64,000 nt of DNA, taken from the human T2T-CHM13v2.0 reference genome, Homo sapiens. Shown here one piece after another: positions 3,090 through 64,000 of the stretch; within the stretch, counting starts at the first letter, position 1; the number at the start of each line of letters is the position of its first letter. A model generated the notes under the pieces. The model was not told where the DNA came from, searched no databases, and saw only the letters and a list, made by a program, of their open reading frames with translations. Where the stretch lies: the NCBI RefSeq assembly GCF_009914755.1, contig NC_060927.1, one strand, 5' to 3'. The position numbers and the translations under genes are program-made.

Positions 3090-3742
3090 GGCTGGGCACA
3101 GTGGCTCATGCCTAGAATCCCAGCACACTTTGGGAGGCCAAGGCAGGAGGATTGCTTGAGGGCAGGAGTTCGAGGCCAGCCTGGGCTACATAGCAGGAAC
3201 CCCTCCCGCAATGATATGGTTTGGCTATGTCCCGACCCAAATCTCAACTTGAATCATATCTCCCAGAATTCCCACGTGTTGTAGGAGGGACCCAGGGGGT
3301 TGTAATTGAATCATGGGGGCAGGTCTTTCCTATGCTATTCTCGTGATAGTGAATAAGTCTCACGAGATCTGATGGGTTTATCAGGGGCTTCTGCTTTTGC
3401 TTCTTCCTCATTTTTCTCTTGCCACTGCCATGTAAGAAGTGCCTTTTGCCTCCGCCATGATTCTGAGACCCCCTCAGCCATATGGAACTGTAAGTCCAAT
3501 TAAACCTCTTTTCCTTTCCAGTTTCAGGTATGTCTTTATCAGCAGCGTGAAAACGGAGTAATACACCCATCTTTGCACACACACACAAAATTAGCTGTGG
3601 GGTGGCACATGCCTGTAGTCACAGCTACTTGGGAGGCTGGGGCAGGAGGATCTCTTGAGCCCAGTAGTTCGAGGCTGCCATGTGTTATCAACACTACACT
3701 GCACTTTAGCCTGGATGACAGTGAGACCTCCATCTCAAAAAT
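3090..3742 (+). mobile_element. AluJ split by a THE1A LTR
   Basis: Left arm 3090-3211; linker and right arm 3566-3742, with the AluJ-type gaggatctcttgagccc. Confidence 0.85.
3212..3565 (+). mobile_element. THE1A (ERVL-MaLR) solo LTR
   Basis: tgatatggtttggct...aatctcaacttgaat...aattaaacctctt...taataca; TG...CA termini; about 354 bp. Confidence 0.92.
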
Positions 3743-4879
3743 ATTAAAAATTTAACAAATTTTAAAAGAGCTACAGATGCAAGAAGTTGATAAATACACA
3801 TGAATATAAAATACCTAAGTAATAGAAAAATAAAATAGTTTTGCAGCTCCCATGTCTTTGGGTGGCTCCACCAGTCTCTGAGCAGGTTTTTATTGGCACC
3901 ACACAGTGTTCCAGTCTCACTTGTGCCCAGGACTCTAATCAGGCACTTCTCCAAAGAAAGAATTGGGAAAGTAAGATCTGTTCACTAAGTATGTCGTTGC
4001 TGCTGTGGTGCCACTGCTTACATGCTCTTCCAAGAGACAGAACTGATAAATGTATTTTTAATAGATCATAAATTCATATTGATCAGTTCATACTGATATC
4101 TCCAATTCAAGTTCATTAACACAAGATTCTCCCTCACTTTCCTCATTCCATCTTCATTTTTCCTTTTTCCTGTAGTGAGGACCCTCATTCCTAAAGTCAG
4201 TATTTGTACACATATACTCTATCATACCATACATACAAAACAGTTTCAGAATTAACTGAATTAACAGTTAGTTCAATACTACAACTAACCTCAATACATA
4301 AAAGTAAAGTTCAAGATTTCTGTCCTGCCTGTACCTGCACCCGTACCTTCCTAGACAATTCAGGCCCAAAGCCATTCAAGGAGGTGGAGGCATCTGTATG
4401 TGATAGGGGGAGCCAGAGTGGCCCAGTGTGGGGAGTGGAAGCTCACCCAGGGTTCCTGAAACCCCTTCAGGTAATCTACAAGGTTAAACTATTTTCAGAA
4501 TAACACTAAGGTAACTTGCCTTTTGCACTTACATCATCTCATGAGTATACTTTGGAGTTTACCAAAAACTTCAGGACATCATAACTGCGTGAGGCTGGGT
4601 TTTCTCCCACCAAAGTAGTATAATGGGATACTTGAATATAATCTAGCTGCCTTCCAATAAGCTAGACATCTGAGGTTTATAGAAACATAAAACAATGCCA
4701 CACTTCTCACTAAATTATTTGTTTTGGGAAATAATTACTTTCCATAAAGATATTTCATTTATGTTAACATGTAATGGGTTTATGAGTTATAACATGAGTT
4801 AACATGTATGGGTTTATAACTTTTGATGAGTTAGTTTTTATTTTTAAAATTTTAATAAATATTTTTAAAATTTACAAGT

Positions 4880-5385
4880 TTTTTCTTGTTTAAATATGAT
4901 TATAATGATTATTTTACACATTTAATGGGTATAAGTGCCATTTTGTTACATAGATATATTGCATATCAGTGAACTCTGGGCTTTCAGCGTAACCATCACC
5001 CAAATAGTATACATTGTATCAATTAAGTAATTTCTCATCTTCTAGACATCTCCAATGTCTACGATTCCACTATGTCCCTGTGCACACATTGGATAACTAT
5101 ATGCAGGAGAATGAAACTGGACCCTCATCTCTCACCATATACAAAAATTAACTCAACATGGATGAAAGACTTAAAGGTAAAACCTGAAACTATACAAATA
5201 CCACAAGAAAATCTAGGAAAAAACTCTTCTGGACATTGGCCTGGGCAAATAATTCATGACTAAAACCTCAAAGGCAAATGCAACAAAAACAAAATAGGCA
5301 AAAGAAATTTAATCAAACTAAAAAGCTTCTGCACAACAAAAGAAGTAAACAACAGAATGGACAGCCAACCAGCAGAATGAGAGTT
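4880..5385 (-). mobile_element. L1MA insertion with 5' inversion (twin priming)
   Basis: 4880-5090 is an L1MA 3'UTR plus A-tail on the minus strand. 5090-5383 is L1 ORF2 C-terminal sequence on the plus strand ([22 protein letters not shown]). agtttt occurs on both sides. Confidence 0.8.
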
Positions 5386-5434
5386 TTATTTTCTAATATG
5401 GTAAATATTAATAGAGCTAACCTACATAAACTAA

Positions 5435-5790
<356 letters not shown>

Positions 5791-5859
5791 AGGAGTCCTC
5801 CATAATTTTTAAGAGCGTAAACAGTCTTGGAAGCTGGGGAAGTGAATTGAGAACTACTT

Positions 5860-6310
5860 CTTTAATGCAATGGCAAAGAAATAAGGGTGAGGGAGAACTG
5901 TAACAGATAAGAGACTTACATAATAACCAAACGTAATGAACGTGTGTCTTTTGGATCCTAATTTTAAGAAATCAACTATACAAAGACATTTTTGAGATAT
6001 CAGGAAAATGTAATTATGTACCAAGTACTATTAGATGACATTAAGGGATTTTAATCTTGCTAGATATGATAAAGGCACAGTGATTATGGGAGAAAACACC
6101 TGTCCTTATCTGTTGTATATGCCTTCTGAAATAGTTACAGGTGAAATGAAATGATAAAATTTTCTTTAAAACACTTCAGAAGAAGACAAGTAGATGAAAC
6201 AAAGTTGGCAACTACTGACAATGTAAAATTTGAGTGCTGGATATATGAATTAATGATAATATCTCTACATCAGTGTATCATTGAAATTTTCCAAAACAAA
6301 CTTTACAAAG
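5860..6310 (+). mobile_element. Old L1M (ME/MC) 3'UTR fragment
   Basis: ttggatcct...aaagacatttttgaga...ttagatgacattaaggga...ttgaaattttccaaaa resembles old L1M 3' ends. Confidence 0.55.
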
Positions 6311-7087
6311 AGAAACAACAAAAACTTAAATGATGCTCAGTTTAAGATTTCCAAGGGAACATATTTTATAGAGGTTCAAATTTAATTTTCAATTGATAAA
6401 TGTCAATTTCTACTTTCTCCTCAAAGCCATGTTTAATTAAAAGGACATCAATAGGCTGAGCACAGCTAGAAAATAATGAGAATTTCAACAGATGGTCATG
6501 TATTCTTTCCTCTACTTGACTTCAAAAATTTCCCCAGATTACTCTACAAATACCTATGACTGTATGGAAAATCCCAGGAAATTCTGAAGTTACAAAATAA
6601 ATTTAGTACTGGAATAGGGAGTGTGTAAACTAATTAGGGAGATCCTTGTAATGAAAATAATTTATAGCAAACTTGAAGTAAGCCCTTTTATTCTTAACCA
6701 AGTAAGATCAGTAACATGTTTTCTTGACAAAAAATGGAAGCTTGCTCATATATTAGAGTCTCCTGATAACAGGTGAATTAATTTTATGAAGTAACCTATC
6801 TTATCTTCTGGAAAGCAGGACTCTGTGAGGGAGGGAGGAAGGGAGGGAGGGAGAGAGGGAGAAAGAGAGAGAGAATGAAAGAATAGGGTTCCTGCCCTGT
6901 ATTCTAGTTAGAGATCTAAGAGACAAGAAGACTTGACTCTACAAAGTGCCTAAATGTGTGAGACAGGATAAAAGTTTCACCATGTGCCTGAGCAATCTGA
7001 GAAATCTTCCTGAAAAACTGGAATTCAACTTTGAAGTATGGGTTCAATTCAAAAGAGCAGAAATGAAGACCATTCCAGGTGAGGCAC

Positions 7088-7632
7088 TGTTGGGAAAAGG
7101 GCTTGTGGGGTGCCTACATAAACTGGCCATAAAAATATGGGACAATAAGTTAGAAAAAGCCACAAAAGGCCTCTGATGAGGAAAGCCTCCTAATTGCCAT
7201 CATGTTCCCATCCTCAGAGTGAAACCTGCTTTCTTATCTGTAAACACTGTGTTCAAAAAAAAAAAAAAAACCACTCCTTTAAAACATTAAAATGTGAACA
7301 AACGTGCAGACTCCTAGTTAAGCCCGTTCCCACTAAGTTAAAGATATACTGTTTAAGCACAAAAAAAACTCATTTAAACCACTATTGCTACAAATTATGC
7401 CTATAACAGATTGCCTCCTTTTCACTGTTTCACCCTAAACATCTGCTTCTTAAATCTAAGTAATTATACTCAATGAATAGTATAAAAACCAAAGCTCTAG
7501 GCCTTTTACACTTCCATATTTTACACTGGCCCCCTGGCTCCCCACCTTTACTCTTAACCTGTCTCTTCTCAATCCTTTGTTGCCACCAAACTTTAAATAC
7601 CCTACGGGTGGTATTAAGGCTGGTCCCCAACA
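7088..7632 (+). mobile_element. HERV-K (ERV2) solo LTR, LTR14-like (HML-1), G-to-A hypermutated
   Basis: TGTTGGGAAAAGGGCTTG...GGCTGGTCCCCAACA termini; perfect 6-bp TSD aggcac (7082-7087, 7633-7638), the size typical of betaretrovirus-like ERVs. Confidence 0.85.
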
Positions 7633-9471
7633 AGGCACATAGCAAGAATAAAATCAGAATAAAAGTAGAAAATTCAAGGTATGTTTAAGAAAAATGAGTG
7701 GGTCAGCCTTGCTAAAGCAGAGAGATTGGTGAAGGAATAATAAGGAATAAGTGGGAAAAGGGTCAAGTCCAATTGTGGAAAACCTTGAATGCTAACATGA
7801 GTACCGAGAAAACCATTCTGAGCACAGGAGAGGCAGCAGCACTGCAGGAGATTTATTTGACAGTGCACACAAATTTATTCAGATATGACAAGAAGATATT
7901 ACAGGCAGGATCTAATGGAGTATGGTAAAAAAAAAAATGTGGCTGGCATAGTGGAAGCCAGACTAGAAAGGAAGAAACACAAACAAGACACACAGAGCGG
8001 AAAACAATTAAAATGACTTGATAAGCCTCCTGAAAATTCTTAGATTTAAGACCTTTAATAAAAATCTTAAATGTAGTGAGCTGATGCATGCATTTGCCTC
8101 CATTTTCTCCTAGATACATGGAAGCAAAGGTATGAAGTATAAAAAGAATGAACCCATAATAATAAAAAAGTGGGAGAAAATTAAGTTTCGTCAATGAATA
8201 AGGTATTTCAAAAAACTTGCTAACCATATGATGAGCTGGCAGATAAAACAGGTGGAGAGAGGCCCCATAGCTGTCACTGAGTTGTGGAGGACATGGCCAT
8301 CAATGTGTCCAATAAAACTAAAGAGAGACTCTGAGCTGAGGTCAACAGATAAAGTGGAGGGCATGAGTGTGCAATGGGGCTAAAAACTGAGAGATCCATA
8401 TAAGTCTTCATATGAGACATCTGCACCAGTCAGCGCTCTCCACCCACAACTCACAGCATAGGCATTTACCACCCAGCCAAAATAATGGATGCTTCTTTTC
8501 CAGATAAATTGAAATAAATATTTGCTGAAAGCCAAGGATATTTTCATAGACATTTATATTTCTTTCTAGTACAATTTAGGGGTTGGGGTCTATTCTGTCC
8601 TATAGCAGTCTTTTCACCTCCTCTTGTAATGTAAAGCAAGCCAGTCGATGGAAACTACTCATCCACATAAACTCTTTGTTAAGAATTTCCATTCAGAGAA
8701 GACATTTAACTGAAAAATAAAGCTATGTATAAAATAATGAATATATGAGCAATAAATAGGATAATTGGCATGTGCCAATTATCCTATTCTTTAATCATGA
8801 ATGTAAATAAGCAAACAAGGACCACCAGATAGGCAAAGAGAGTCAAAATTATTGAAGTAAAAGACAATCCCTCTGCCACAAGAAGCAAAAGCAAAACCAA
8901 AAAATAACAAAAGTCCTTGGTAGAAACAAATAGTCCAAGATATAGAAGAGAACTTTTAAAAGATAAAAGAAAAATTTGAAGTTTACTTAGAAGTTGAATC
9001 TACAACACTGGAACACAAGGCAACAAAAAAAAGAAAAGAAAATTAAAGAGAGCTTTTAATAATTTTTTTAAATGCCAAAATAAAATAAAAATTTAGTAGA
9101 ATGACTGGAAAATAAAGTTTTAGTAACATCTCAGAATAAGAAGACAGAGACGTGGATTACATTAAAAATAAAAGACACGGGGAACCAATCCAGGGGATTC
9201 AATTAACAGGAACTTCAGAAAAGGTAAAAAAAAAAATGATAAAGAAAAAATTATCAAAGGGGATAATTTCAGAGATTAAGGACAAATCTTCAGAGTTAAA
9301 GGGTCTGCTAAGTGTGCATTAAAAATACGTCTTGAAAATATAAAAATTATACTTAGATGCACCATTGTAAGATTTTTAGATGAAGAATAAAGAGAAAATC
9401 CTAAATAAAAACAAAATAAAAATCAAACAGGCATGAGACTTCTCATCAGCAACGGTGCATACTAAAACACC

Positions 9472-9958
9472 ATGGTAAATTAAGAATATTAATGGCCCAA
9501 AATAATGATCTCTGTGTATCCACCCTTGCCTTGTAACTGTTTTCTCTTATCTGACTCTGAGTTCAGCCGTGTGACTTGCTTAGGCCAATGGGATGGTTAG
9601 AAAAGGTGCTTATGTACTTCCACTCTTTCTCTTATATCCCTGCCACTATCGTGGGAACATACCCAGGCTAGCCTACTGGGAGAATAAGAGAATTACATGA
9701 GAGACAGCTGAGTCATTTCAGGTGATCTCATCCTACACCCTCCTATAACTAGCCAATTCCCAAACATATAATAATCTCATAAATGATCAGCAGAGTTGTA
9801 TAGCTACTCAGTTGACCAAAGACTCACGAGTAGTCCAACTGAAACCAAAGGAACCATCCAGGCAACTCAGACTTGGGAGCAATGGTTGGGTTTTTTGAAG
9901 CTACCACATTTAAGGTACTTTGTTGTACATCATTTTGTGGAAATAGGTAACAGATAGA
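9472..9958 (+). mobile_element. MLT1G/H-like MaLR LTR
   Basis: gtgtgacttgcttaggccaatgg, cccaggctagcctactgg, and a terminal aataggtaacagata. Confidence 0.7.
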
Positions 9959-11280
9959 AATACAAAGGATCAGTGCTGTCAAAATTTTGAGGGAGTTTTA
10001 AATCTAAAACTCAATACCCAGACCAACTATCAATTAAGAGTGAGGCAAGAACAAGATATTTTACAAATGTAAGAACATGTATCCATTCTCTTCTCACGTA
10101 CCATTTTTTTTTTCAAAAAAATTACTTGAGAATGTTTTCCAGAAAAATAAGGGACAAAGCAACATAGAATGAGGCACTGCATCTAGAAAACAGTGAATCC
10201 AATCCAGAGTGTTCCAGGATAAAATCTGTGCAATAGGCCCAAGGAGAATGTCAAATGATTAAGGGGCACAGGCTCTGAGAAGGAGATGTCCGGGGGAAAA
10301 AAAAGACGCACTAAAAGAGTAATATGACTGAGAGATTAGAAAATAGTGAAAATGTGTTACAAAAATAGGATAGGAGGGCCATCAGTGAAAATGGCAAGTG
10401 AGGACATCTAAAATGACTATTCTCCCTAAAAGCAGTAAGAGTACTGGTAAAACTTCTTAGAATCAACTTTTTCAGAACTCTGGAAATTAATAAAAGGCTT
10501 GCTGCAATGTAGGAAACATGTATTCAAGAAAAGCAGTTAGATCTCAGTAATAGTAAGTTTTATGGCCTCTTAATTTGCCCCATTTCTATCTCCCACTCTT
10601 TAGCTCTGTAATAGCTTTGAAAACTACCCACAATCACAGTACAAAACAGCAGTCTGGAAGCCACTGGATGGGGCTATGCATTCCCAGAGGACTGTCACTA
10701 TTTGGCCCATCTGGGATTCCCTGGAAGACCCTTCTCACAAAGATGCCTTTGTTTAACCTGACTTGGAGCTTATCCAGTGTAACAATTGGATATCCACATG
10801 CAAATAAATAAAGCTGGACATCTATCTCATATAATATTCAAAAATTCACTTAAAATGAATTAAAGACCTAAAAGTAATAGTTAAAACTATAAAACTCTTA
10901 AGCAAGAATGTAAATATAATTTCTGTGACCTTGCATTAGACAATAGTTTCATCGATATTATACCAAAAATGCAAGCAACAAAAGAAAAAGTAGAAAAATT
11001 GGACTTCATCAACATCTAAAATTTTGTGCTTCAAAAGACATTATGAAGATGGTGAAGAGACAATCCACGGATCAGCAAATAAATCATATCTGATAAAGTT
11101 ATAGTATCTGGAATATATAAAGAACTCTTAACAACTAATCAATAAGAAGACAACCCATTTTTTAAAAATGGGCAAAAAATCTGAATAGACATTTCTCCGA
11201 AGATATACAAATAGCCAACAAGCACATGAAAAGATGTTCACTGTCATTAATCATTAGAGAAATACAAATTAAAACCACAA

Positions 11281-28404: not shown

Positions 28405-32234
<3,830 letters not shown>

Positions 32235-51152: not shown

Positions 51153-51503
51153 TGATATAGTTTGACTGTGTCCCCGTAAAATCTCAATTTGAATTGTATC
51201 TCCCAGAATTTCCACGTGTTGTGGGAGGGATCTAAGGGGAATAATTGAATCACGGGGGCCGATCTTTCCCGTGCTATTCTTGTGATAGTGAATAAGTCTC
51301 ACGAGATCTGATGGGTTTATCGGGGTTTCTGCTTTTGCTTCTTCCTCATTTTTCTCTTGCCACCGCCATGTAAGAAGTGCCTTTTGCCTCCTGCCATGAT
51401 TCTAAGGCCTCCTCAGCCATGTGGAACTGTAAGTCCAATTAAACCTCTTTTGTTCCCAGTTTCAGGTATGTTTTTATCAGCAGCATGAAAATGAACTAAT
51501 AAA
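51153..51503 (+). mobile_element. THE1A solo LTR
   Basis: Close match to 3212-3565; perfect 5-bp TSD gatag (51148-51152, 51504-51508). Confidence 0.93.

Positions 51504-63412: not shown

Positions 63413-64000
<588 letters not shown>

What the first reader, a model, noticed from the sequence alone, without database searches (positions are those of the whole stretch)
7088..7632. HERV-K LTR14-like solo LTR with an APOBEC3-type G-to-A hypermutation pattern
Seen in sequence: the plus strand is G-poor. My hand count for 7261-7500 is about 23 G vs 53 C, with no GG and about 5 GA. Long A-runs occur at ttc(A16)cc, cac(A8)ct and tataaaaaccaaag. Against my recollection of the LTR14 consensus, many G positions read A (tttGaaGcattGGaat becomes tttaaaacattaaaat; ttaGatctaagtGattGtac becomes ttaaatctaagtaattatac), mostly in GA/GG context. 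Established knowledge: APOBEC3 deaminates minus-strand retroviral cDNA, giving G-to-A on the plus strand; GA-to-AA points to A3F/D/H-type and GG-to-AG to A3G. Inference: a fixed record of germline antiviral editing before integration.
Basis: partly seen in the sequence, partly recalled or inferred. Interest (0 to 1): 0.7.

Follow-up and report, generated by a model that had tools for sequence, protein, structure and literature searches.

The report
APOBEC3-scarred HERV-K(HML-10) solo LTR
This is the leftover end-piece of an ancient retrovirus in the human genome that has A in place of about a third of the Gs its sister copies carry, likely because a host antiviral enzyme (APOBEC3) attacked the virus before it inserted; it is real but already listed in a published catalogue.

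Summary
Window 7088-7632 is a complete 545-bp LTR14 solo LTR of HERV-K(HML-10) with a perfect 6-bp target-site duplication; it is element 10 of Broecker 2016. Against sister copies it shows non-CpG G>A at 36.5 of 100 sites and C>T at 5.4 of 113 (p = 2e-9). The changes sit in GA (21 of 28). GG sites change almost only where the next G has also become A, so this is a GA-type (non-A3G) APOBEC3 footprint, not a GA/GG mixture. No A-rich subfamily turned up (best relative 83%). The long A-runs align to mixed A/G tracts in the other copies. The first 55 bases are nearly spared, as reverse-transcription timing predicts. A gorilla entry carries the same sites. The finding is not new: Knisbacher and Levanon 2016 list this element with 26 edited sites (supplementary data S8), and all 26 read A here. 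Sharing with Old World monkeys and the identity of the enzyme remain untested. Verdict: real, a clean example, already known.

The parts
7082..7087 (+). left copy of the 6-bp target-site duplication AGGCAC
   Evidence: the same TSD is given for element 10 in Table 1 of PMC5142424
7088..7632 (+). complete LTR14 (HERV-K HML-10) solo LTR, 545 bp, TG...CA ends, G-to-A hypermutated on the viral plus strand
   Evidence: 78-83% identity to 40 other genomic matches including the C4-gene provirus LTRs; substitution counts
7088..7142 (+). 5' end of U3, nearly spared by editing (1 of 17 G sites changed, against 35 of 82 downstream)
   Evidence: p = 4e-3; cut point chosen after seeing the data
7255..7270 (+). 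A16 run. The aligned stretch in the other copies is a mixed purine tract (median 11 bases, 4 G); likely converted by editing, then lengthened by slippage
   Evidence: the gorilla sites shift by 2 bases across this run
7361..7368 (+). A8 run; median 3 G in the aligned stretch of the other copies; also A8 in the independently edited copy L023
7484..7488 (+). A5 run; median 3 G in the aligned stretch of the other copies
7633..7638 (+). right copy of the target-site duplication AGGCAC; no internal proviral sequence follows

Best explanation
[quoted passage not shown] Shown: family, ends and TSD, G>A excess, GA context, confinement to the LTR, the same sites in a gorilla entry. Inferred steps: (1) the enzyme deaminated C to U on single-stranded minus-strand cDNA; (2) GG pairs were lost stepwise, an edit at the second G making a new GA-like target; (3) the start of U3 escaped because plus-strand synthesis covers it first; (4) the provirus integrated, and its two LTRs later recombined to leave one LTR between the TSD copies; (5) edited purine tracts became pure A-runs that then slipped in length. 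The copy is likely an inert relic.
For: Non-CpG G>A 36.5/100 vs C>T 5.4/113, p = 1.7e-9; A>G only 1.1. Context: GA 21.2/28, GG 5.7/24, GC 2.5/20, GT 4.8/21; GA exceeds GG against 13 of 13 comparators, p 4e-3 to 1e-5. The first G of a GG is changed in 6.6 of 8.5 cases where the next base reads A in this copy and in 0.7 of 19.6 where it is still G. 5' sparing: 1/17 vs 35/82; also seen in L003, L019 and L008; sparse editing just downstream of the 3' PPT is described for HIV (PMC1635257, passages). Flanks keep their GA dinucleotides: 54 and 47 per 500 bp against 13 in the LTR. In the sibling PKIB provirus, both LTRs share 12.9 of the 13.8 G>A of the 5' LTR but only 5 of its 20 other differences, so LTR G>A excess in this family can predate integration. 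The published screen lists this element; 26 of its 26 sites read A here. Gorilla chr3 entry: 22 of 22 sites read A here, score 20.5 against a null maximum of 12.1.
Against: A solo LTR has no partner LTR or internal genes, so pre-integration timing is inferred for this copy, not shown; gorilla sharing dates the changes only to before the human-gorilla split. The HIV model predicts a lightly edited LTR, whereas about three quarters of GA sites are changed here. There is no smooth 5'-to-3' rise, and the other heavily edited copy L023 is hardly spared at its 5' end (46% in the first 110 bases). GC and GT sites are also raised (12-23%, against about 5% for C>T). All human A3s except A3G share the GA preference (PMC3532371, passage), so the enzyme cannot be named. 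The Alu 1.3 kb upstream shows a small G>A lean (4.5/46.6 vs 1.5/62.9; not tested for significance).
Confidence: 0.9

Rival explanations
1. The copy belongs to an A-rich HML-10 sub-lineage that replicated with these As already in place, so it records viral drift rather than one editing event.
For: HML-10 is A-biased overall (PMC5667498, passages). L001 and L023 share 27.6 G>A sites against 21.3 expected from the +1 context (p = 0.002). Only 43 of the 70 catalogued elements were examined.
Against: With +1+2 context the expectation is 24.7 (p = 0.07). The two copies share only 1.7 other differences, while L023 shares 11-12 with L052, L049, L044 and L041. They fall apart on a tree without A/G columns, though deep support is weak. 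No copy is closer than 83%.
Confidence: 0.03
2. Post-integration, kataegis-like deamination of the chromosomal locus in the germline by a nuclear TC-type APOBEC3 (A3A or A3B).
For: Same dinucleotide preference. Timing relative to integration is not shown for this copy. Slight G>A lean in the neighbouring Alu.
Against: The polarity is that of the viral plus strand here (+ on chr3) and in L023 (- on chr22). The flanks are not GA-depleted. The sibling provirus has the same G>A in both LTRs.
Confidence: 0.04
3. Reverse-transcriptase error under dCTP shortage, without a deaminase.
For: It would also be strand-specific and precede integration (own knowledge); raised GC and GT rates show some context-free G>A.
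Against: About 76% of GA sites against 12-24% of the other contexts. Context-free G>A is how PMC3532371 models RT error (passage).
Confidence: 0.02
4. Ordinary ageing (CpG decay) or a sequencing artefact.
For: Sanger G>A error clusters exist (supplementary note S5 of PMC4866542).
Against: CpG sites were excluded, C>T is at background, and divergence other than G>A (0.045) is ordinary for the family (0.024-0.094). The same sites appear in the T2T window, the published human table and gorilla.
Confidence: 0.01

Closest known systems
This very element in Knisbacher and Levanon 2016 (PMC4866542), supplementary data S8, track 'Human LTR ERVK', chr3:100807957-100808502+
   Same: Same length and strand; 26 of its 26 listed sites read A in the window at zero shift, and 25 of 26 read G in at least 25 of the 49 other copies.
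   Different: The table gives coordinates only. In the passages and parts read, the element is not discussed or assigned a family or context; 'LTR14' has 0 occurrences in the main text and the searchable supplement. I count about 36 non-CpG G>A sites against 26 clustered ones.
HERV-K(HML-10) solo LTR no. 10, 3q12.2 (Broecker 2016, PMC5142424, Table 1)
   Same: chr3, + strand, about 545 bp, intergenic, TSD AGGCAC.
   Different: That paper has no occurrence of 'APOBEC' in its main text.
APOBEC3F-type edited HERV-K elements of Anwar et al. 2013 (seen only as cited in supplementary note S8 of PMC4866542) and GA-to-AA human ERVs of Ito et al. 2020 (PMC6955324, section 7)
   Same: GA-type G>A footprints in human ERVs, including HERV-K.
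   Different: The three A3F-type elements named there are 3-kb HERVK stretches on chr15 and chrY, not this HML-10 LTR. 'LTR14' and 'HERVKC4' were not found in Ito's text or 9 supplements; family names inside figures cannot be seen.
A3G-hypermutated HERV-K(HML-2) proviruses (Lee 2008; title seen in reference lists only, paper not held; GG detail recalled)
   Same: Hypermutated class II HERV fixed in the germline.
   Different: GG-to-AG there; here GG-to-AG is at background (0.7 of 19.6).
mA3-edited mouse Mtv proviruses (PMC12548423, passages)
   Same: Edited LTRs, and new targets made by editing consecutive cytidines.
   Different: [quoted passage not shown]

Membership tests
HERV-K(HML-10) / LTR14 solo LTR | Full-length similarity to the LTRs of the C4-gene provirus and other HML-10 loci | tested here: met
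   78-83% over the whole length to 40 matches, including chr6:31.84-31.88 Mb; loci match Table 1 of PMC5142424 by chromosome, strand and order
HERV-K(HML-10) / LTR14 solo LTR | About 550 bp, TG...CA ends, 5-6 bp target-site duplication | tested here: met
   545 bp, TGTTG...CAACA, AGGCAC twice
HERV-K(HML-10) / LTR14 solo LTR | No internal proviral sequence on either side | tested here: met
   9 provirus-end loci match window 4000-11000 only in the LTR, in an Alu and in one short stretch near 11000
HERV-K(HML-10) / LTR14 solo LTR | Match to the Dfam/Repbase LTR14 model | not testable with these tools
   No such library is held; the RepeatMasker label LTR14 comes from PMC5142424
APOBEC3-hypermutated retroelement | Plus-strand G>A far above C>T and A>G outside CpG | tested here: met
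   36.5/100 vs 5.4/113; A>G 1.1
APOBEC3-hypermutated retroelement | Enrichment in GA and/or GG context | tested here: met
   GA vs GC+GT p about 1e-5 to 3e-7 with 13 of 13 comparators; Hypermut-like GRD test p 1e-3 to 3e-2
APOBEC3-hypermutated retroelement | Changes present at integration (both LTRs, internal genes, oldest orthologues) | tested here: inconclusive
   Solo LTR; gorilla shares the sites; shown only for the sibling PKIB provirus; no match in the orangutan, rhesus and gibbon parts read
APOBEC3G-type (GG-to-AG) hypermutant | GG-to-AG dominant | tested here: not met
   0.7 of 19.6; 2.0 of 20.4 with two comparators
APOBEC3F/D/H-type (GA-to-AA) hypermutant | GA-to-AA dominant | tested here: met
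   21.2 of 28
APOBEC3F/D/H-type (GA-to-AA) hypermutant | Attribution to one enzyme | not testable with these tools
   All human A3s but A3G share the preference; +2 and -1 contexts are flat at these small counts

The most novel reading that the evidence does not exclude
HML-10 met a non-A3G APOBEC3 in the catarrhine germline about 25-35 million years ago that could nearly saturate GA sites inside the LTR itself. At least 4 of 50 LTRs carry the mark independently, the editing seeded the same poly-A microsatellites convergently at two loci, and the PKIB provirus shows extra 3'-LTR-only edits (6 vs 1) of the kind so far reported for mouse proviruses, which would bias LTR-based dating of human ERVs.
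Probability: 0.25. Interest if true: 0.4.

Novelty: already known. Interest (0 to 1): 0.2.

Why it matters
It is a clean fossil of antiviral editing in the primate germline and a good teaching case. It shows two side effects: editing doubles the apparent age of a copy (0.127 vs 0.061 differences per site, about 56 vs 27 Myr at the rate used by Broecker), and it turns mixed purine tracts into A-runs that then vary in length between human and gorilla. It opens no new mechanism; the phenomenon, the GA context in human ERVs and this locus are all in print.

Tried and rejected
A-rich subfamily: searches with the window copy, an ordinary copy and the second edited copy (40 candidates scored each, of 98, 342 and 108) found no close relative. 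Common edited ancestor of L001 and L023: rejected. The single-comparator overlap test was inflated by the comparator's own private changes and was redone with two comparators. 3'-LTR-specific editing across 6 provirus pairs: only PKIB leans (6 vs 1); the other five are balanced (4/4, 5/5, 5/3, 4/4, 8/10), so it is not claimed. Older orthologues in the published table: orangutan part 300 has no chr3 row between chr20 and chr6; rhesus parts 351-352 have one chr2 element, of 954 bp; the 543-bp element in gibbon part 136 does not match above chance; the rhesus chr4 555-bp element could not be assigned. That screen is conservative, so absence says little. The chimp and baboon tracks and the remaining parts of the other tracks were not read. 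Lee 2008 and a paper sought as Anwar 2013 were not held. Literature searches for LTR14/HML-10 with APOBEC gave no paper on this locus beyond a family-level remark on A bias.

Full report
Observation. The element runs from 7088 to 7632 (545 bp; A 181, C 133, G 77, T 154), with AGGCAC on both sides and TG...CA ends. The A-runs are at 7255-7270, 7361-7368 and 7484-7488.

Identity. A search of the window's genome gave 40 other matches at 78-83%, among them the LTRs of the C4-gene provirus (40 of 98 candidates scored). Table 1 of PMC5142424 (section 5, part 1 read) lists HML-10 element 10: 3q12.2, + strand, solo LTR, intergenic, TSD AGGCAC. That paper took its elements from the RepeatMasker class LTR14 and dates the family to 35.3 +/- 7.8 Myr. 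LTR14A/B/C belong to other HML groups. No internal proviral sequence lies near the LTR.

Method. I compared copies with copies. 52 loci gave 50 LTRs from 43 insertions: three duplicates were dropped (L031, L032, L038), one locus holds two LTRs, and six proviruses give two each. That is 43 of the 70 catalogued elements. A site counted when two comparators agreed, averaged over all pairs of 13 comparators picked for low G>A. This choice slightly raises G>A counts in every other copy, which used all 29 copies then held, gives the same result for this one.

The excess. Against 28 of 29 single copies G>A is 31-50 and A>G 1-11; the exception is L023 (19 vs 24), itself edited. With two comparators: all G>A 39.4, A>G 1.1, C>T 7.6, T>C 3.3; outside CpG, G>A 36.5 of 100 sites and C>T 5.4 of 113, p = 1.7e-9. 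Divergence other than G>A is 0.045, inside the family range of 0.024-0.094, so the copy is not simply older. Of the 50 LTRs, 4 pass p < 0.001: L023, L001 (this one), L008 and L003.

Context. GA 21.2 of 28, GG 5.7 of 24, GC 2.5 of 20, GT 4.8 of 21. GA exceeds GG with 13 of 13 single comparators. The first G of a GG is changed in 6.6 of 8.5 cases where the next base reads A in this copy, and in 0.7 of 19.6 where it is still G. The A3G product GG-to-AG is thus at background, and the GG losses look like stepwise editing (inference; new targets from consecutive cytidines are described for mouse Mtv21, PMC12548423, passages). GA is the preference of A3D, A3F and A3H (PMC6955324, section 7) and of all human A3s but A3G (PMC3532371, passages), so no single enzyme can be named.

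Place and time. The flanks keep GA (54 and 47 per 500 bp against 13). The first 55 bases are nearly spared (1 of 17 vs 35 of 82, p = 4e-3; first 165 bases 6 of 38 vs 31 of 62, p = 6e-4; cut points post hoc), as in L003, L019 and L008, but much less so in L023. PMC1635257 (passages) explains low editing just downstream of a polypurine tract by short single-stranded time; it also predicts a lightly edited LTR, which this copy is not. The two LTRs of the PKIB provirus share 12.9 of the 13.8 G>A of the 5' LTR but only 5 of its 20 other differences, so G>A excess in HML-10 LTRs can be present at integration. For this solo LTR that step stays an inference.

Independence. L001 and L023 share 27.6 G>A sites (24.7 expected from +1+2 context, p = 0.07; 21.3 from +1 alone, p = 0.002) but only 1.7 other differences, and L023 shares 11-12 with another sub-lineage. 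A tree without A/G columns separates them, with weak deep support. They read as two events hitting the same hot spots, and both have the family's longest A-runs (16 and 13; next 7).

Consequences. The TATA box, enhancer and poly(A) signal named in PMC5667498 (section 6) are present in 34, 40 and 38 of the 49 other copies and absent at those places here. Only the enhancer is hit by G>A changes; the other two are lost by other changes. No function was tested.

What is known. PMC4866542 (passages of the main text; parts 1, 136, 154, 300, 351, 352, 388 and searches of the supplement, which is cut at 65,536 rows) lists chr3:100807957-100808502+ in the Human LTR ERVK track with 26 sites. At zero shift 26 of 26 read A in the window, against 13-20 at shifts of 1-2 bases. 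L023 is listed too (chr22:21173215-21173768-). The gorilla track has chr3:100049071-100049615+ with 22 sites: after shifts of 0, 2 and 1 base at the two A-runs, 19 of 22 equal listed human sites and 22 of 22 read A here; a shift-tolerant score is 20.5 against a null maximum of 12.1. Orthology rests on chromosome, position, strand, length and site pattern, not on flank alignment. No match was found in the orangutan, rhesus and gibbon parts read; chimp and baboon were not read. Other supplementary data of that paper (S1-S7) were not among the files held, and figures of PMC6955324 cannot be seen; either may name LTR14 and its context.

Verdict. Real, well supported, already catalogued. What I add is the link between the two tables (HML-10 element 10 = the listed edited element), the GA-only context, the 5' sparing and the origin of the A-runs. 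Interest 0.2.

Noticed in passing
L023:1501-2053 (G000:C22:21227639-21228191, - strand): A second, more heavily edited LTR14 (non-CpG G>A 46.8 of 100, GA 20.8 of 28, more GG and GC change). It fits element 61 of Broecker (PI4KA intron) by chromosome and strand, is listed in the published edited-site table, and a gorilla chr22 entry matches 10 of 11 sites.
   Followed up: yes
L003 and L019 (G000:C6:123.69-123.70 Mb): Both LTRs of the 6q22.31 (PKIB) provirus are moderately edited, with 6 G>A private to the 3' LTR against 1 in the 5' LTR, like the 3'-LTR-specific edits of mouse Mtvs. Internal genes were not examined.
   Followed up: partly
L008 (G000:C1:212288204-212289249): Tandem double LTR14 with shared moderate G>A excess; fits Broecker element 5.
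   Followed up: partly
window 6827-6874: (GAGG)n/(GA)n purine microsatellite about 210 bp upstream of the LTR.
   Followed up: no
window 3239-3563 and 51179-51501: Two copies of another repeat, 85-97% alike in blocks; they look like MaLR (THE1/MST) LTRs, label recalled.
   Followed up: no
window 31250-31832 and 63414-64000: Two L1-like stretches 96-98% identical to each other (label recalled), so relatively young insertions.
   Followed up: no
PMC4866542 data S8, rhesus ERVK track, chr1:15826909-15828463-: A 1.55-kb rhesus element with over 200 listed edited sites, far denser than the human examples.
   Followed up: no
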